Shown here: positions 18,201 through 56,212 of the stretch, piece after piece
Layout of the letters: each line of letters starts with the position of its first letter
Position numbering within the stretch: position 1 is the first letter of the stretch
Origin: Escherichia phage vB_EcoM-ZQ1
DNA length: 64,000 bases
Reading direction: 5' to 3' (one strand)
Sequence record: MW650886.1
The notes under the pieces: model-generated
Database searches by the model: none
Seen by the model: the letters and a program-made list of their open reading frames with translations, nothing else
What the model was told of the DNA's origin: nothing
Position numbers and translations under genes: made by a program

Positions 18201-18755
18201 ATGAAATATTTTGAGAAGTTTCCACTTGTTTGGCATCAATTGCAAGATGTCCAAGAGAATGATCAGGTGCTGTTACAGAACTTAACGCGCCGGGTGATGA
18301 TCTTACAGAAAATTAAGGACATCGAAGGGCTTCTCCTGCCGTATACGATCCAAGATGGGGAAACCCCAAGGTCTTTCGCAGAACGCGTTTACGGATCCTT
18401 CGAGTTGTTTTGGATACCTTGTCTGATAAACGGCATCATGGACATCAATAAGGACTGGCCGAAACCGGAACGCCGTATTGTTGAAGAACTGACTGCAGAT
18501 TATGGCATCGATGGTATGTGGGATACAGCCTATTATGTCGACCAGTTCAACAATGTGACCGACGCCCGTGCTATCAAATTTGCATATAACCTAGACCTGG
18601 ATGAGCCGTCCATAATTGCTAACTATGGTCTGACGGCAGTTTCATACCATGATGATGCAATCAGTAAGAATGAAGCCAAACGGAACATCCAAGTACTCGA
18701 CCCAGATTATGTGTCTTCGTTTGTCAATCAGCTGGAGCAGGAGTTGGCGAAATGA
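18201..18755 (+). CDS. hypothetical structural-module protein
   Basis: 184 aa, tightly coupled within the structural block. Confidence 0.35.
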   Translation: MKYFEKFPLVWHQLQDVQENDQVLLQNLTRRVMILQKIKDIEGLLLPYTIQDGETPRSFAERVYGSFELFWIPCLINGIMDINKDWPKPERRIVEELTADYGIDGMWDTAYYVDQFNNVTDARAIKFAYNLDLDEPSIIANYGLTAVSYHDDAISKNEAKRNIQVLDPDYVSSFVNQLEQELAK

Positions 18756-20140
18756 TCGAAAACAGAGAGACCCAAGACGGTATTGTAACACCGTCAACAA
18801 CATTTGACCTGAAGTATATGGCGATACTCCCTCATACACCCCAGGGCGGATCACCAACGCCATATGACCTGACGGCGTTGTTTGAGGAGTTCAACGTCTT
18901 CCAGGATCTGGGTCTTGAAGGGAAGTCATCTCCATCACTTACAGCCAATGTCTTGATAAAAGAGGGGTGGGACATTCTTGACACAATGCCTATCTTGGGT
19001 GGTGAAGAAGTTGTGGTGTCATTCAAGAGTCCGGCGGCCTCGGAATACACCACTCTCTCCCTGCGCGTAGCGCGTGTTGGGCGCGTAGCTGATGAGTCCA
19101 ACAGCTCGTCCAAGAAAGCATTCTGGTTGCACATGGTGACCACCGATGCCTATAAGGACAGCATGATCCGATGCTCCCTCGGTCTTGACGGTTCGTATTC
19201 TGACATGGCGAAGACAATCTTCAATCAGCTGGAGTCGCGCACCAAGTTCGAAGACATCGACCCGTCATATGGAATTCAAGAGCGGTTCGCCACCCCGCTC
19301 TGGCCTGTGCTGCGATCTATTGATTATATGGCGAGCCGTTCTTATGACGAATTGTTCATGCCATTCGTGTTCTATGAAGACTTCAATGGCTATCACTTCA
19401 AGAGCCTGACGACGTTGTTCAACCAGGGTAGCCAGTCATTGACAGCAGAAGAGAAGCAGGAACTAGCTCAGCAGAACAAGTTGTTCCGTGATCCTCAGGA
19501 CGCGCCGCTCATGCAGGATAACAACTTCAACTCTGAGCGCTTTATGCGCACGATCATCAAGGCAGAGAAGAAGCTGGCGCGTGACCAGTTCATGGCAAAC
19601 TACCGCGATGTCCTGGCAGTGAACGAGCGCGTCTACGACTTTGAGACCAAGACAGTCACCCCAACACAGCGCATCTATACTGAGTGGTTTGCAGAGACGG
19701 CTCACCTTGATCCGTTCCCGATGTTCTCAGATGAATTCAATCGTCAGAACGTCCGTTACATTGAAGCCCAGCCGGATGGAGCGGAGCAGATTGATTATGC
19801 TCGTCGTGTTATCAACTTCAGTCTTGCCAGCACTGTGATGCGCGTGTTGCTCGTTGGTGATAACCGCCTGAACGTCGGTCAGGTGTTCTACGTCGAAGAC
19901 CAGTCCAACCGTCCTAAGAAGAACGAAAACCTGGCAGAGTTAAGTAAGCTATCGACAGGCCACTATATCGTGACCAAAGTGCGTCACAAGATTTCCCGCC
20001 TGACCAAAGATTATCAGTGCATCGCTGAGATTGCCAAGGACAGTTTGCTGGAGCAGGTGCTTCCACCTCAGACCAATCAGACAACTGCTTCCACCACTAC
20101 TCCTCAGGCGATTGAGAAAGGCCAAGCACAGAAGGTTTAA
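18752..20140 (+). CDS. hypothetical structural protein (baseplate hub candidate)
   Basis: 462 aa, ATGA-coupled, immediately upstream of the tape-measure-like gene. Confidence 0.35.
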   Translation: MIENRETQDGIVTPSTTFDLKYMAILPHTPQGGSPTPYDLTALFEEFNVFQDLGLEGKSSPSLTANVLIKEGWDILDTMPILGGEEVVVSFKSPAASEYTTLSLRVARVGRVADESNSSSKKAFWLHMVTTDAYKDSMIRCSLGLDGSYSDMAKTIFNQLESRTKFEDIDPSYGIQERFATPLWPVLRSIDYMASRSYDELFMPFVFYEDFNGYHFKSLTTLFNQGSQSLTAEEKQELAQQNKLFRDPQDAPLMQDNNFNSERFMRTIIKAEKKLARDQFMANYRDVLAVNERVYDFETKTVTPTQRIYTEWFAETAHLDPFPMFSDEFNRQNVRYIEAQPDGAEQIDYARRVINFSLASTVMRVLLVGDNRLNVGQVFYVEDQSNRPKKNENLAELSKLSTGHYIVTKVRHKISRLTKDYQCIAEIAKDSLLEQVLPPQTNQTTASTTTPQAIEKGQAQKV

Positions 20141-20151
20141 CGAGGTGACCC

Positions 20152-22098
20152 ATGGCACAGGAAGCAACGAACAATGATGTTGTCAAAGTTCTAGACAAGA
20201 TCAAGGCGGAGATGATGCAGCGCAAACAACTCCGCGCTCAGAATGAAACCAACAAACAGCTTGACCGGATGAACAAGAATCTGGCCAAGCTGGAATCTGC
20301 CACTAAACAGGGCACCAAGGCCGAGTCCAAGCCATTTGAAATCCGTATCCCGACAGTCAATGAGATCGTCATGGGATTCGCTCGCATGTCTCCGATCTTC
20401 ACCCGCGACTTCAGCGTATGGATGAAGGATACTGTCGATGTGGGTAACGAAGGCAATCGGGAACTGGAGAATATTGCAGGCAAGATTGACCGCCTCGGTG
20501 AGATCACCCGCATGCCAACAGATGACACGTCCCTGGAGTATCTTAACCTGATCTCAGACCAGCTGAAGTCTGCCAATGATGACACCCTCAAGCGCATGGA
20601 CGAGCAGAGTGTGTCTCTGGTCCGCGTGGGATCATTCTTGAACATGATCGACGGAGTGATGATCGAGGTTCGTGACGATGTTGCTGAACTGAAAAAGAAC
20701 TCCGATGACACCCTTACTCGATTGTCTAGCATTGAAAACAAGATTGGGCGCACGGGCGGTCATATCGTTGGAGTGCTGACACGCATCTTTGATGAAGACC
20801 AGAAGTGGCGTGAGAAGGACGAGATGCGCCGTGGGGAAACCGACAAAGAAACGGGTGGTCATCCTCAGGCGGGTTCTGTTATACCCAAAGACGATGACCA
20901 GAAAGACGATTCCTCCGGTATCGGGGCTGCTGTGGCGGCCATGCTTGGCCTGAATGCACTGAAGGGCTTCTTGCTCAAGCCGTTCAAGATCATCGGTGGT
21001 GTTGTCGGGACTTTCCTCGGCATGTTCTCCAAGCTGGGAGAAGGTATCACCAAACTTCTGGGTCCATTTGGGAAGGTGTTTAAGTTCCTGAAAGTCGGCC
21101 CACTGGCTCTCCTGTCTATGATCTGGGACTTCGGTAAAGGCTTCATTGATGCGAAGGAGATCCTGGGTAAAGGTGCTGTCACGATAGTTGACCGAGTACG
21201 GGCGGGGATATCAGAACTGGTTGGTGGATTTGGTGATCTATTTGACTGGGTGTCCAAGATCTTTGGCTTCGATACCAAGGCGGGAGAAACCCTGCGCAAA
21301 TACACCCTCATGATCACTGAGGCTCCCGCTCGTTGGCTGAATGGTATTATCGACTGGATTAGCAACGACTTGTTTGCAGGGATCGGGAGAGACACGTCTC
21401 TTACGGATATCCCTGGCAAGTTAGCAGACAACCTACAGTCCGAGTTGATGAAGCTGGTAGACTGGATCACAGGGGGTATCAGTAGTGTGATCGACGAGGG
21501 CATGGGTGTGGCCAACAAGGTCATTGACGATATCAAGAAGGGATTTGCCGAAAATGTGAAGAAACCTTTCTTCAACATGCTGAACACAATCACCAATGCG
21601 ATGTTCGATATCGTTGACAAGTTCGTCAGCATCATCCCTGACGCTCTGGGTGGACAGGCTGCGAAGCAGAAGATGGATGAGGCTCGCCAGTCTATGCTGA
21701 TTGACACTGATGAGAATCCATCTCCTAATGTGACAGAGACCCAGCAGCCACAGACGCCAGCACAACCGAACATCGATCCACAAACGCTGACTCCAATACC
21801 TTCTGGTGCGTCTTCGGATGACAAGAATATGACTAATGACCGCACCTCTCAGCTGAAAGCTGCGTATGGTTCTATCGGGGGTGGTACTCTGGGCGGGGCC
21901 ATGCCATCACAAGGGAGGGCGCTGTCTAATATTGAGCAAGTACAAGGCGGCTATTCACCGCCTCCAGCCAGCGTCGTGATGCCAGTACAGCAGAATGTGG
22001 ATGCTTCTAAGAGGATCAACACGACCAATAACTTCAACAGCTCATATCTTGAGCCTGAGAACAAAACAGATAATTCCCGCATCCTGTGGGAATGGTAA
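20152..22098 (+). CDS. tail tape-measure / baseplate hub protein (T4 gp29-like candidate)
   Basis: 648 aa; coiled-coil-like N-terminus, Gly-rich hydrophobic central segment (GIGAAVAAMLGLNALKGFLLKPFKIIGGVVGTFLGMF), Ser/Thr/Pro-rich C-terminus. Confidence 0.45.
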   Translation: MAQEATNNDVVKVLDKIKAEMMQRKQLRAQNETNKQLDRMNKNLAKLESATKQGTKAESKPFEIRIPTVNEIVMGFARMSPIFTRDFSVWMKDTVDVGNEGNRELENIAGKIDRLGEITRMPTDDTSLEYLNLISDQLKSANDDTLKRMDEQSVSLVRVGSFLNMIDGVMIEVRDDVAELKKNSDDTLTRLSSIENKIGRTGGHIVGVLTRIFDEDQKWREKDEMRRGETDKETGGHPQAGSVIPKDDDQKDDSSGIGAAVAAMLGLNALKGFLLKPFKIIGGVVGTFLGMFSKLGEGITKLLGPFGKVFKFLKVGPLALLSMIWDFGKGFIDAKEILGKGAVTIVDRVRAGISELVGGFGDLFDWVSKIFGFDTKAGETLRKYTLMITEAPARWLNGIIDWISNDLFAGIGRDTSLTDIPGKLADNLQSELMKLVDWITGGISSVIDEGMGVANKVIDDIKKGFAENVKKPFFNMLNTITNAMFDIVDKFVSIIPDALGGQAAKQKMDEARQSMLIDTDENPSPNVTETQQPQTPAQPNIDPQTLTPIPSGASSDDKNMTNDRTSQLKAAYGSIGGGTLGGAMPSQGRALSNIEQVQGGYSPPPASVVMPVQQNVDASKRINTTNNFNSSYLEPENKTDNSRILWEW

Positions 22099-44405: not shown

Positions 44406-46016
44406 ATGTTAGACAATATGAGATGGTTTTACGGCACCGTTGAAGATGTCAACGATCCAGACCAAAACGGGCGAGTTGCTGTTCGCATATATGGCGTACA
44501 CACCGACGATCCCGTCCTCCTGCCTACGGACAAACTCCCATGGGCGAAGGTACTGATGCCTGCTTCAAACGCCTCCTCTGCTGGTTTAGGTTGGTCTCCA
44601 ACGGGTATCATTCCTGGTACTGAGGTTATGGGGTTCGCCCTTGACGAAGCATACCAGAATTTACGCATCACCTGGACTTGGACTGGTTCAAGTCCTACTG
44701 ATGGTGCCGACACAAACCCACTGGCTCTCGGGCAGGTCGTTCAATCTGTGGAACGTCAGGCGTACAACGCCGTCACTGACGTTCCTGTGAAACAAGAAGA
44801 CGAACCACAACCAGATCCACAACCACCTGTTGGCGGGTATGATCCAGAGAAGTGGATGACAATCGCTCGTGGCGAATTGGGTATCAAGGAGTACGCTGGA
44901 AAGTTCAACAACAACCCGCGCATTATAGAATATCACAAGACAACCTCCCTTGGTGCTTCTGAAGATGAAGTGTCGTGGTGTGCGGCGTTCGTGGGTTGGG
45001 TTATGATACAGGCTGGATACACGTCTACACGCTCCGCTCTTGCCCGATCTTACCTTACATGGGGCACTCCACTGTCAGCACCACAATATGGCGCTATCGT
45101 AGTCTTCCGGCGTGGTAACAACCCTACATTTGGACACGTAGCGTTTGTGCAGAAGTTCGATGCAAACTATGTCTGGTGTATTGGTGGCAACCAATCCGAT
45201 TCAGTGAAGGTTAGTCGTTTCAGACGTTCTTCGGTCTTGGGATATCGTTGGCCTGGTCCTGCTAACACAGCCACAGCCGTGCCTGCGCAGCAGAATGGTA
45301 AATGGTCAGAACCTATCCCAGATCGTACTCCAAAGGAACAACCGACTCCGGCTCCTACTGGGCGAGTACAGGATATTGACAACACTGGAGAAACCATGGT
45401 TCCGGCTGCGGGTGGCTCCAAATACCCGTACAATAACGTCATGGTGTCCCGAGCTGGGCATATTATGGAAGTGGATGACACCCCTGGTGGTGAACGTCTT
45501 CATTGGATGCATAAGTCTGGGTCTTACAAGCAAATGTTGCCGGATGGTGATGTGGTCAACAAGTCCGTCAAAGACCACTATGACCTGACGATGTTCAACA
45601 AGCGTTATTATGTCGGCGGGGACCACAACCTGACGGTCAAAGGAACTGAAGTTCAGCGCAAGACAGGTGAGGTCTATCATTTGCATTCCAACAACTACTC
45701 AAATGTGGTTGCGGGCACAGCGCTGATGAAATTCAGTGACCTAGCGGAAATGCAAGCGCAGAATATTCTGCGCATTATCTGCGAGACTCTGGAGGTCGGC
45801 GGGACATTGAAGGTTCCTAAGATTCTAACGACTGAGATCATCGCTGACAAACTGACTGTCGCTCAGACGATCAATGGTAACATCATATATGCCGAAGGTG
45901 CTGGTCGCGCTTCTTCTCTGTCAGGTGCAACCCCTGCATCCCCTACGGGTCCGGGTGAGATTGACATCAAGGCAGAATTAAAAGACAATGGTGGTAATTT
46001 CGGCACCAAAGAGTAA
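44406..46016 (+). CDS. baseplate central hub / cell-puncturing protein (gp5-like) with CHAP/NlpC-P60-type peptidase domain
   Basis: N-terminal gp5-type OB segment (WFYGTVEDVNDPDQNGRVAVRIYGVHTDD...LPWAKV); central Cys/His peptidase-like region (SWCAAFVGWVM ... GHVAFV); C-terminal repeat-rich region. Confidence 0.65.
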   Translation: MLDNMRWFYGTVEDVNDPDQNGRVAVRIYGVHTDDPVLLPTDKLPWAKVLMPASNASSAGLGWSPTGIIPGTEVMGFALDEAYQNLRITWTWTGSSPTDGADTNPLALGQVVQSVERQAYNAVTDVPVKQEDEPQPDPQPPVGGYDPEKWMTIARGELGIKEYAGKFNNNPRIIEYHKTTSLGASEDEVSWCAAFVGWVMIQAGYTSTRSALARSYLTWGTPLSAPQYGAIVVFRRGNNPTFGHVAFVQKFDANYVWCIGGNQSDSVKVSRFRRSSVLGYRWPGPANTATAVPAQQNGKWSEPIPDRTPKEQPTPAPTGRVQDIDNTGETMVPAAGGSKYPYNNVMVSRAGHIMEVDDTPGGERLHWMHKSGSYKQMLPDGDVVNKSVKDHYDLTMFNKRYYVGGDHNLTVKGTEVQRKTGEVYHLHSNNYSNVVAGTALMKFSDLAEMQAQNILRIICETLEVGGTLKVPKILTTEIIADKLTVAQTINGNIIYAEGAGRASSLSGATPASPTGPGEIDIKAELKDNGGNFGTKE

Positions 46017-46089: not shown

Positions 46090-46470
46090 ATGAAAGAGTA
46101 TAAAGATGTCGATCTGAAGTTCGGCATGCATCCAGTGACCAAAGATGTCACCATGAAATCAGGTGTGTATGCTGTCTTACAATCCGTGCGGAATATCGTC
46201 ATGTCTTCAGTCGGGGACTGGCCCACTTATCCTGGGATCGGCGCGGGGCTTTATGGGCTGCTGGGTGAAAACACGACACCGACTATCCAGGTAGATGTGA
46301 AGAACAAAGTAGAGGACGCCATCGCCCTGTATGAACCCAGAGCAGAGGTAGAAGAAGTCACGGTGAGTCTGTCAGAGGATTACCACTCTCTGGGCGTGAC
46401 CATCACATTCTATGTGGTCAACAATCCAGATCCAATAACAGACACCGTGTGGTTGAAAAGGACGAATTAG
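46090..46470 (+). CDS. gp25-like baseplate wedge protein (GPW/gp25 family) candidate
   Basis: 126 aa, size and position next to the hub protein; weak pattern match. Confidence 0.5.
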   Translation: MKEYKDVDLKFGMHPVTKDVTMKSGVYAVLQSVRNIVMSSVGDWPTYPGIGAGLYGLLGENTTPTIQVDVKNKVEDAIALYEPRAEVEEVTVSLSEDYHSLGVTITFYVVNNPDPITDTVWLKRTN

Positions 46471-51843: not shown

Positions 51844-52638
51844 TTAACTGAAACTCTTGTATGCTGCTGCGAGCTTCTTGTCGTACTGGTTCTTGGCATA
51901 CGCCGGACCATTATAGCGCCGTGCAAATTCAGACCAGTTCTTGTCCTTCAGAGCCTTCCAGAGCTTGGCGTCAGCCTTGATGAACTTCACGAATGCCATC
52001 AAATGAGCACGTTCTCCTGTCAGGAAGTCGTTGAACATCTCCTTGGCGTTGGCATATCCACAGACCTGGCAGTTGAATCCCATGATCTGGAAGAGACCGT
52101 AAGAGGCGCTCTCGTACGCACAATCCTCATCGATGTTGATGGCCGCATGAAGTCGATCCAACTCCGCGTCGCCTCCCGTGTACCCGCCTGCGGAAGGACT
52201 GACCAACGTCGGGTACATATGTCCCATGGCATTCGCCCGAGCCTGTCCGAACTTCGCCATCAGCTTCTTATACATGATGTGACGCTCAAATAATGTCTTG
52301 ATCTTACCTGACTTGGTGAAGCCCGTGCCGCGCGACTCAACCTGATTCACCGCCTTGACAGAGGCAAGGTCAACACCCAGATCATTAGCAGCATCAATCA
52401 GGTCTGACTCAGTTAAATGATCCTGATGGGCGTCTCCGGCGTTGCGAATAGCATAGGAGGTCTTTGGACCCACGATACCATCAATGACAAGCCCCGCACC
52501 CGCCTGAACAGTCTTGACGGCGTTCTCTGTTGCCTTACCAAAGATGCCGTCAGCGACGAGGGTGAAGCCGATTTTGTTGAGGCTATCCTGAAGTGCCTTC
52601 ACTTCAGTACCACGGTTGCCAAATTTTAGAATGGCCAT
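51844..52638 (-). CDS. endolysin: N-terminal peptidoglycan-binding repeats plus C-terminal muramidase-like domain
   Basis: ATG at 52638 with GGAGG RBS; two PG_binding_1-like repeats (GTEVKALQDSLNKIGF ... FGKATENAVKTVQ); C-terminal catalytic-like domain (YGLFQIMGFN). Confidence 0.65.
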   Translation of the reverse strand: MAILKFGNRGTEVKALQDSLNKIGFTLVADGIFGKATENAVKTVQAGAGLVIDGIVGPKTSYAIRNAGDAHQDHLTESDLIDAANDLGVDLASVKAVNQVESRGTGFTKSGKIKTLFERHIMYKKLMAKFGQARANAMGHMYPTLVSPSAGGYTGGDAELDRLHAAINIDEDCAYESASYGLFQIMGFNCQVCGYANAKEMFNDFLTGERAHLMAFVKFIKADAKLWKALKDKNWSEFARRYNGPAYAKNQYDKKLAAAYKSFS

Positions 52639-52700
52639 AAGAAAATACCTCCACAATGAATGTAGAGGTATTTAAAGTGAAAGTGAACTGACTTTGAGGA

Positions 52701-56204: not shown

Positions 56205-56212
56205 TATTTATA
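56205..56212 (-). promoter_or_regulatory. T4 late-promoter box TATAAATA (minus strand)
   Basis: exact match on the reverse complement, immediately after the upstream terminator hairpin. Confidence 0.5.

What the first reader, a model, noticed from the sequence alone, without database searches (positions are those of the whole stretch)
44406..46016. gp5-like hub protein carries a CHAP/NlpC-P60-type peptidase instead of a lysozyme domain
The N-terminus matches the gp5 OB-fold pattern, but the central domain has a Cys...His arrangement (SWCAAFVGWVM ... GHVAFV) typical of CHAP or NlpC/P60 cysteine peptidases, not the T4 lysozyme fold. This suggests the tail spike cuts peptide cross-links rather than glycan strands.
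Basis: partly seen in the sequence, partly recalled or inferred. Interest (0 to 1): 0.5.

Follow-up and report, generated by a model that had tools for sequence, protein, structure and literature searches.

The report
Phage tail spike carrying a cysteine peptidase

The parts
44406..46016 (+). gp5-type baseplate central spike gene (536 aa plus stop)
   Evidence: ORF listing. [quoted passage not shown] 100% identical to proteins of Escherichia phages PC3, PH4, A221 and YX22.
44406..44705 (+). N-terminal OB-fold domain (aa 1-100), the part that docks on the hub in T4
   Evidence: Pfam Gp5_OB, 48.1 bits. phmmer to T4 gp5 aa 6-101. Mostly high pLDDT (87-96), with a lower loop around aa 51-70.
44706..44840 (+). 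Linker 1 (aa 101-145), Pro/Gln/Asp-rich and predicted disordered
   Evidence: pLDDT 40-60 in the full-length model. Sequence printed. A short 6-nt tandem repeat lies at 44803-44826.
44841..45275 (+). TIGR02594 / CHAP papain-like cysteine peptidase domain (aa 146-290)
44979..44981 (+). Codon of the predicted catalytic nucleophile Cys192 (TGT)
   Evidence: Invariant in 50 homologues. Sits at the N-terminus of helix 192-202 in the model. Codon checked.
45135..45137 (+). Codon of the predicted catalytic His244 (CAC)
   Evidence: Invariant. Sits at the start of strand 243-252. Codon checked.
45189..45191 (+). Codon of Asn262 (AAC) in the GGNQ motif, the candidate third triad residue
   Evidence: Invariant and kept in spike-embedded copies. 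The role is inferred from the papain-like topology, not shown.
45276..45413 (+). Linker 2 (aa 291-336), Pro/Thr-rich; it corresponds in position to the T4 gp5 linker that is cleaved on maturation
   Evidence: pLDDT below 50 for aa 311-335. Sequence. Cleavage was not tested.
45414..46013 (+). gp5 C-terminal spike module (aa 337-536): the start of the beta-helix plus a tip region shared with enzyme-less spikes
   Evidence: phmmer aligns aa 338-432 to T4 gp5 385-477 (i-Evalue 2.6e-13). aa 338-530 are 39% identical to P0128 133-322. The monomer model is poor here, as expected for an intertwined trimer.
44364..44371 (+). CATAAATA, a candidate T4-type late promoter 34 nt upstream of the ATG
   Evidence: Invariant across four genera. 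nATAAATA occurs only 3 times in 64 kb, and two of these lie 34 nt upstream of tail or baseplate gene starts. Function is inferred.
44113..44345 (+). Conserved non-coding leader: extended -10-like TGCTATAAT (44113-44121), an invariant core (44230-44251) and a hairpin at 44321-44335
   Evidence: Whether it belongs functionally to the spike gene is unknown.
44041..44060 (+). Intrinsic terminator closing the upstream gp26/gp51-like operon
   Evidence: 8-bp GC-rich stem, TTCG loop and a T-run. The stem covaries between genera.
42973..43893 (+). Neighbouring baseplate hub gene (T4 gp26-like)
   Evidence: Pfam T4_baseplate, E 3.5e-46. Annotated as gp26-like in AV101, with a start further in than this mechanically listed ORF.
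46090..46470 (+). Neighbouring baseplate wedge gene (T4 gp25-like)
   Evidence: Pfam GPW_gp25, 33.7 bits. PHROG 261.
51844..52656 (-). Separate endolysin candidate (PG_binding_1 + N-acetylmuramidase). It is unrelated to the spike enzyme.
   Evidence: Pfam Muramidase PF11860, E 4.6e-59, and PG_binding_1, E 1.5e-14. PHROG endolysin families.

Best explanation
The gene encodes the central cell-puncturing spike of the contractile tail and is a homologue of T4 gp5. Its N-terminal OB domain is expected to seat the spike on the hub. Its C-terminal module is expected to form the trimeric needle. Between them, on two flexible linkers, sits a TIGR02594-type papain-like cysteine peptidase (predicted triad Cys192-His244-Asn262), in the position where T4 has a lysozyme. 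When the sheath contracts and the spike crosses the outer membrane, three copies of this enzyme would reach the periplasm and locally open the peptidoglycan by cutting its peptide part, so that the tail tube can pass. The most likely bond is gamma-D-Glu-mDAP (DL-endopeptidase). Cell lysis at the end of infection is left to an unrelated muramidase endolysin. Shown here: the domain architecture, the fold class, the conservation of the catalytic residues, the cassette-like insertion and the genomic context. Inferred: the trimeric state, delivery into the periplasm, catalytic activity and bond specificity.
Against: No enzymatic activity has been measured for this protein or, in the literature I could search, for any TIGR02594 member. 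No TIGR02594 member has a solved structure that is detectable by sequence; the best PDB E-value is 0.15. Fold similarity cannot decide bond specificity: the matches include DL-endopeptidases (LytE, CwlO), a DD-endopeptidase/LD-carboxypeptidase (MepS) and amidases (Gsp, some CHAP lysins). The trimeric needle could not be modelled, because only a monomer could be run and its C-terminal pLDDT was below 55. No gp27-type hub partner or PAAR tip protein was identified in the window (one search gave no Pfam hit for the candidate tail proteins).
Confidence: 0.85

Rival explanations
1. The domain is an N-acetylmuramoyl-L-alanine amidase that strips whole stem peptides from the glycan, rather than an endopeptidase.
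For: The Pfam hit is CHAP ('cysteine, histidine-dependent amidohydrolase/peptidase'), a family that includes amidases. The Gsp amidase and CHAP lysins appear among the fold matches. One distant phage homologue is annotated 'putative N-acetylmuramoyl-L-alanine amidase' (H109).
Confidence: 0.2
2. The domain is a DD-endopeptidase that cuts the mDAP-D-Ala cross-link itself. This is the literal reading of the first reader's phrase 'peptide cross-links'.
Against: Most top fold hits with a named activity are DL-endopeptidases (LytE, CwlO, YkfC-like, RipB). Nothing here discriminates directly between the two.
Confidence: 0.2
3. The peptidase acts on a non-peptidoglycan substrate, for example the phage's own spike (maturation cleavage) or the Braun lipoprotein-peptidoglycan link.
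For: In T4, gp5 is cleaved in the equivalent linker, and here a disordered linker follows the enzyme. Papain-like enzymes are versatile.
Against: Close free-standing relatives carry peptidoglycan-binding modules and look like endolysins. The same domain is predicted as an antibacterial T6SS cargo. Enzyme-less spikes of the same family exist, so the enzyme is not needed for spike maturation.
Confidence: 0.05
4. The domain is a catalytically dead structural or peptidoglycan-binding remnant.
For: One metagenomic OB-peptidase protein (P0200) has Ala in place of the Cys, so inactive versions can exist.
Against: Cys, His and Asn are invariant in all Ackermannviridae copies, and the domain is the most conserved segment of the protein.
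Confidence: 0.03

Closest known systems
gp5 homologue of Escherichia phage CBA120 / Salmonella phage ViI (Kuttervirus, Ackermannviridae), as described by Kutter et al. 2011, Virol J 8:430
   Same: Same gene in the same family. CBA120's protein is 537 aa, with a CHAP/TIGR02594 region at aa 150-282 flanked by gp5-like regions 3-109 and 334-437. The peptidase domain is ~91.5% identical between the window and Kuttervirus copies. The PhiSH19 paper also lists 'Gp5 OB family & CHAP domain'.
   Different: Only genus-level sequence divergence: the window is Agtrevirus-like and its protein is 100% identical to those of phages PC3, PH4, A221 and YX22. The 2011 paper still calls it a 'lysozyme' in places and did no structural or conservation analysis.
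Bacteriophage T4 gp5 (tail-associated lysozyme, PDB 1k28)
   Same: N-terminal OB domain and the start of the C-terminal beta-helix are homologous. Similar overall length, an enzyme held between two linkers, and a baseplate gene neighbourhood.
   Different: T4's enzyme is a T4-lysozyme-type muramidase paralogous to its endolysin. Here it is a papain-like cysteine peptidase unrelated to the phage's muramidase endolysin. The Pfam Gp5_C and Gp5_trimer_C models do not hit the C-terminal part.
Hub- or spike-borne papain-like peptidases of Gram-positive systems: Staphylococcus phage 812/K hub lytic domain (9euf, 9eum), diffocin hub-hydrolase CD1368 (8v3w_H), phage Andhra gp10 tail-tip lysin (8ej5)
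   Different: Different scaffold proteins and Gram-positive targets. No significant sequence similarity.
T6SS VgrG spikes with peptidoglycan amidase effectors (Tae1-4; TIGR02594-domain effectors next to VgrG4 in Stenotrophomonas)
   Same: VgrG is the gp27-gp5 homologue, and the same enzyme family (TIGR02594) is predicted as its cargo. Tae3, Tse1, Tae2 and Tae4 are fold matches.
   Different: In T6SS the effector is a separate protein with an immunity partner. Here it is fused inside the spike polypeptide. The T6SS TIGR02594 effectors are also only predicted.
Pseudomonas phage phi6 P5
   Same: A virion-associated endopeptidase of a phage with a Gram-negative host. According to a 2017 review it is the only such case demonstrated (PMC5380687).
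   Different: A dsRNA cystovirus and a monomeric, membrane-associated enzyme, unrelated to tail spikes.

Membership tests
T4 gp5-type baseplate central spike | N-terminal gp5 OB-fold domain | tested here: met
   Pfam Gp5_OB, 48.1 bits (cut-off 25). phmmer aligns aa 3-93 to T4 gp5 aa 6-101, E 2.9e-30 for the whole protein. Confident beta-rich model.
T4 gp5-type baseplate central spike | Central T4-lysozyme-type (muramidase) domain | tested here: not met
   No lysozyme, SLT or glycoside-hydrolase hit in Pfam, NCBIfam or PHROGs beyond family names. T4 gp5 aa ~102-384 are left unaligned. The fold of the central domain is papain-like.
T4 gp5-type baseplate central spike | C-terminal gp5C region (triple-stranded beta-helix) | tested here: inconclusive
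   aa 338-432 are homologous to T4 gp5 385-477 (i-Evalue 2.6e-13). However, Pfam Gp5_C and Gp5_trimer_C give no hit, and the monomer model is low-confidence here. aa 338-530 are shared with enzyme-less spikes.
T4 gp5-type baseplate central spike | Homotrimer seated on a gp27-type hub and capped by a PAAR protein | not testable with these tools
   Only single-chain prediction is available. No gp27 or PAAR homologue was recognised in the window.
T4 gp5-type baseplate central spike | Encoded among baseplate hub and wedge genes | tested here: met
   Flanked by gp26-like (PF12322, E 3.5e-46), a gp51-like 49-aa ORF and gp25-like genes.
T4 gp5-type baseplate central spike | Component of the virion | not tested
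   Literature only: the orthologue was detected in Sajous1 virions with 20 spectra (PMC10892097) and in the ViI proteome as cited.
TIGR02594 family (NCBIfam) | Score above the curated cut-off over the full model | tested here: met
   129.6 bits against a cut-off of 70.55; model positions 2-132 of 132.
CHAP domain (Pfam PF05257, MEROPS C51-like) | Score above the gathering threshold | tested here: met
   43.1 bits against 26, at aa 187-262.
CHAP domain (Pfam PF05257, MEROPS C51-like) | Conserved catalytic Cys and His | tested here: met
   Cys192 and His244 are invariant in 50 homologues and in the embedded copies.
NlpC/P60 (Pfam PF00877, MEROPS C40) | Sequence match to the NLPC_P60 model | tested here: not met
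   No PF00877 hit for this protein at E <= 0.1. Some homologues carry a precomputed PF00877 hit alongside CHAP.
NlpC/P60 (Pfam PF00877, MEROPS C40) | Papain-like alpha+beta fold, with Cys at a helix N-terminus and His on the following sheet | tested here: met
Peptidoglycan peptidase (any of the above) | Hydrolysis of a defined peptidoglycan bond | not testable with these tools
   This needs enzymology. No published assay was found.

The most novel reading that the evidence does not exclude
The TIGR02594 cassette may be a mobile 'wall-opening' module traded among endolysins, T6SS VgrG cargo and phage spikes. In Ackermannviridae, its replacement of a glycosidase could be adaptive, for example by making entry insensitive to periplasmic lysozyme inhibitors, to glycan O-acetylation or to Spackle-type superinfection exclusion. 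It may also have a bond specificity not yet described for a virion enzyme of a tailed phage with a Gram-negative host. The conserved structured leader upstream could be a dedicated regulator of spike expression.
Probability: 0.15. Interest if true: 0.5.

Novelty: already known. Interest (0 to 1): 0.2.

Why it matters
This is a tidy example of module swapping in a phage cell-puncturing device, in which a peptidase takes the slot that T4 fills with a lysozyme. Reviews of virion-associated lysins still describe endopeptidases as mainly a feature of Gram-positive phages, with only phi6 P5 demonstrated for a Gram-negative host. A biochemical demonstration in this large, therapeutically used phage family would therefore fill a real gap, though a modest one. 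[quoted passage not shown] It has also spread by annotation transfer to unrelated short CHAP proteins, such as those of ICP1, henriette and PP101. As a discovery the finding adds nothing, because the architecture was published in 2011.

Tried and rejected
- **Hidden lysozyme or transglycosylase:** rejected. No hits appeared in Pfam, NCBIfam, the PDB sequence search or the fold searches.
[quoted passage not shown] ICP1 gp207 is PG_binding_1 + CHAP, and the henriette and PP101 proteins have no OB or gp5C region. Only phiM9 gp121 and RSP15 ORF208 really contain Gp5_OB.
- **Solved structure of a TIGR02594 member:** none found. A profile search of the PDB gave a best E-value of 0.15.
- **Partners of the spike:** the 462-aa and 648-aa tail proteins at 18752-22098 gave no Pfam hit, so no gp27-type hub was identified. 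I did not search for a PAAR tip protein.
- **Full-length model:** the single-chain prediction is uninformative for the C-terminal needle.
- **Upstream leader:** no Rfam family beyond sub-threshold hits on the terminator, no tRNA or tmRNA, and a single-sequence folding z-score of only -1.36. The case for structure rests on a few compensatory changes among 3-4 lineages and is not established.
- **Literature:** searches for an activity assay of an Ackermannviridae gp5 or a TIGR02594 enzyme found nothing. One search call failed on a syntax rule.

Full report
**Observation.** The window holds an ATG-started ORF of 536 codons at exactly 44406-46016 on the + strand. SWCAAFVGWVM contains Cys192 (codon 44979-44981), and GHVAFV contains His244 (codon 45135-45137). 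Pfam reports Gp5_OB at aa 39-96 (48.1 bits, cut-off 25) and CHAP at aa 187-262 (43.1 bits, cut-off 26). The NCBIfam model TIGR02594 matches aa 150-282 over its whole length (129.6 bits, cut-off 70.55, E 8.7e-38). Against solved structures, T4 gp5 (1k28, 1pdl) and a related central spike (9f4a) align only to aa 1-93 and aa 337-432. The stretch that is lysozyme in T4 has no counterpart.

**What the window is.** The protein is 100% identical to proteins of Escherichia phages PC3, PH4, A221 and YX22, and 99.8% identical to that of AV101. The surrounding 10 kb is 98-99% identical to those genomes. They belong to Ackermannviridae, subfamily Aglimvirinae (Agtrevirus-like). About 278 phage records carry a full-length homologue. 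The gene lies between a gp26-like hub gene, a 49-aa gp51-like ORF and a gp25-like wedge gene.

**The central domain.** I collected 1,265 homologues of aa 138-289. The closest are free-standing 135-230-aa 'TIGR02594 family' proteins, many fused to PG_binding_1, SH3_3 or LysM modules. Those are architectures typical of cell-wall hydrolases. In an alignment of 50 of them, W150, E162, D187, W191, C192, A213, S215, R236, G243, H244, V245, F247, G261, N262 and V267 are invariant.

- An AlphaFold2 model built from that alignment has mean pLDDT 94.4 and pTM 0.90.
- Foldseek against the PDB returns only papain-like cell-wall hydrolases at the top: the C. difficile autolysins Acd24020 and Acd33800, MepS, LytE, and the LysGH15, LysK and PlyC CHAP domains.
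- No lysozyme or transglycosylase fold appears in either search.
- In the models, Cys192 opens a helix and His244 opens the next long strand, which is the canonical papain-like arrangement.
- No TIGR02594 member has a solved structure detectable by sequence. The best E-values are 0.15 (Tae3), 0.19 (phi812 hub) and 0.36 (CwlO).

**The refutation criteria.** Neither is met.

**Is the enzyme an integral, maintained part of the spike?** An exhaustive search of 1.84 billion representatives found 12,001 relatives. I classified the retrieved proteins by segment:

| Arrangement | Proteins |
|---|---|
| Peptidase alone | 180 |
| OB + C-terminal module, no TIGR02594 peptidase | 64 |
| OB + peptidase | 9 |
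| OB + C module + peptidase | 7 |
| OB + peptidase + C module (the window's arrangement) | 4 |

The Cys-His-Asn triad is kept in every embedded copy except one truncated fragment and one Cys-to-Ala variant. An enzyme-less 324-aa spike (P0128) aligns to aa 8-118 (41% identity) and aa 338-530 (39%). The ~220 residues of linker-peptidase-linker correspond to only ~23 residues in P0128. The peptidase is therefore a cassette inserted into a minimal spike. Across Ackermannviridae genera the triad is intact. In the most distant genus the peptidase is the best-conserved segment: 89.7% identity, against 73% for OB and 83.6% for the C module. The full-length single-chain model shows confident OB (aa 1-100) and peptidase (aa 141-290) domains, joined by disordered linkers (aa ~105-140 and ~300-335). 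The C-terminal part is poorly modelled, as expected for an intertwined trimer run as a monomer.

**Mechanism.** By homology with T4 gp5, the protein should form the trimeric needle at the centre of the baseplate. On sheath contraction it would carry three peptidase domains through the outer membrane. There they would open the peptidoglycan locally by cutting its peptide part, allowing the tube to pass.

- Shown here: architecture, fold class, residue conservation, insertion logic and genomic context.
- Inferred: trimer formation, periplasmic delivery and catalysis.
- Virion presence rests on published proteomics of relatives.
- Bond specificity is open. Fold neighbours favour a gamma-D-Glu-mDAP endopeptidase, but a DD-endopeptidase (like MepS or Tae3) or an amidase cannot be excluded.
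- The phage has a separate endolysin candidate, PG_binding_1 + N-acetylmuramidase, at 51844-52656 (-). Entry and exit thus use unrelated enzymes that attack different parts of the wall, unlike T4, whose two lysozymes are paralogues.

**Comparison with what is known.** This is not new. Kutter et al. [quoted passage not shown] They describe a putative CHAP domain at aa 150-282 belonging to TIGR02594 of the NlpC/P60 superfamily, flanked by regions 3-109 and 334-437 that are shared with T4 gp5. The PhiSH19 genome paper lists 'Gp5 OB family & CHAP domain' for its orthologue. The phiM9 GenBank note mentions the NlpC/P60 similarity.

What remains missing is experiment. Literature searches found no activity assay for an Ackermannviridae gp5 or any TIGR02594 enzyme, and no Ackermannviridae baseplate structure. 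A 2024 family review does not discuss the protein. A 2017 review of virion-associated lysins still attributes endopeptidases mainly to Gram-positive phages, with phi6 P5 as the sole demonstrated Gram-negative case. Tail-tip papain-like peptidases are well documented elsewhere: the phi812/K hub, the diffocin hub-hydrolase and Andhra gp10. TIGR02594 domains are also predicted cargo of T6SS VgrG spikes.

**Verdict.** Novelty: already known. Interest is low (0.2).

**Seen in passing.**

1. *gp5 relatives mix enzyme modules.* I found OB-SLT-CHAP(-gp5C) (P0122, P0125), OB-lysozyme-gp5C-peptidase (P0168), OB-gp5C-CHAP (P0127) and OB-gp5C-Amidase_2 (P0126). Ralstonia phage RSP15 has a genetically split gp5. 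ORF208 is OB+CHAP, and the overlapping ORF207 carries a weak GH19-like region plus the gp5C module.
3. *A conserved upstream region.* The 345-nt gap upstream of the gene is not a plain spacer.
   - A strong terminator lies at 44041-44060.
   - An extended -10-like TGCTATAAT lies at 44113-44121.
   - There is a nearly invariant core at 44230-44251.
   - Several hairpins show compensatory changes between genera: 7 of 30 predicted pairs.
   - No Rfam family or tRNA matches. With only 3-4 independent lineages, the structure is suggestive but not proven.
4. *A possible late promoter.* An invariant CATAAATA lies 34 nt before the ATG. nATAAATA occurs only three times in the window, and a second copy lies 34 nt before the tail-tube-like gene at 38293. 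That fits a T4-type late promoter.

Noticed in passing
window 44113-44345 (between the terminator at 44041-44060 and the gp5 ATG at 44406): A ~230-nt non-coding stretch conserved at ~64-72% identity across Agtre-, Limestone-, Kutter- and Taipeivirus, and unannotated in most records. It has an extended -10-like TGCTATAAT, an invariant core TTATGCCTCC(A/C)TGGCATTGGAA, and hairpins with compensatory changes (7 of 30 RNAalifold pairs; GGAAGC/GCTTCC versus GGATGC/GCATCC). There is no Rfam or tRNA match. It could be an sRNA or a structured 5' leader.
   Followed up: partly
window 44364-44371 and 38251-38258 (+); 56205-56212 (-): nATAAATA, the T4 late-promoter consensus, occurs only three times in 64 kb. 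Two copies lie exactly 34 nt upstream of baseplate or tail gene starts (gp5 at 44406 and the gp54-like/tail-tube-like gene at 38293). The third lies 24 nt upstream of a 101-aa ORF. The copy before gp5 is invariant across four genera. In 2011 the late promoter of ViI-like phages was described as unidentified.
   Followed up: partly
L004 (Ralstonia phage RSP15) 2494-3432 and 3429-4922: A genetically split gp5. ORF208 (312 aa) is Gp5_OB + CHAP. ORF207 (497 aa, annotated 'endolysin') overlaps it by 4 nt and has a weak GH19-like region plus a gp5C module that is 37% identical to window aa 328-465. This spike would carry two different wall-degrading modules on two chains.
   Followed up: partly
Proteins P0122, P0125, P0168, P0127 and P0126 (metagenomic representatives): gp5-type spikes with other enzyme combinations: OB-SLT-CHAP(-Gp5_trimer_C), OB-Phage_lysozyme-Gp5_trimer_C-TIGR02594 peptidase, OB-Gp5_C-CHAP, and OB-C-Amidase_2-Peptidase_S74. 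The spike is a modular scaffold, and dual-enzyme versions exist.
   Followed up: partly
L002 2752-3468 (Vibrio phage ICP1 gp207), L005 2899-3468 (Vibrio phage henriette), L006 2989-3465 (Pectobacterium phage PP101): [quoted passage not shown] This looks like annotation transfer through the peptidase domain; they look like endolysins.
   Followed up: yes
window 51844-52656 (-): The endolysin candidate is PG_binding_1 + N-acetylmuramidase (PF11860, formerly DUF3380). It is unrelated to the spike enzyme, so entry and exit use different chemistries. The 2011 CBA120 paper said no lysis enzyme had been identified.
   Followed up: partly
window 43893-44042 (+): A 49-aa ORF directly after the gp26-like gene matches PHROG 9633 strongly and PHROG 634 weakly ('baseplate hub assembly catalyst', T4 gp51-like; E 4.4e-4). 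It is usually annotated as hypothetical.
   Followed up: no
window 18752-20140 and 20152-22098 (+): Two large tail-module proteins (462 and 648 aa; PHROG 350 'tail protein' and PHROG 3799, with a weak tape-measure hit) have no Pfam domain. phiM9 has a PHROG-350-like 'tail protein' just upstream of its OB-CHAP gene, so the 462-aa protein is a candidate gp27-type hub partner.
   Followed up: no
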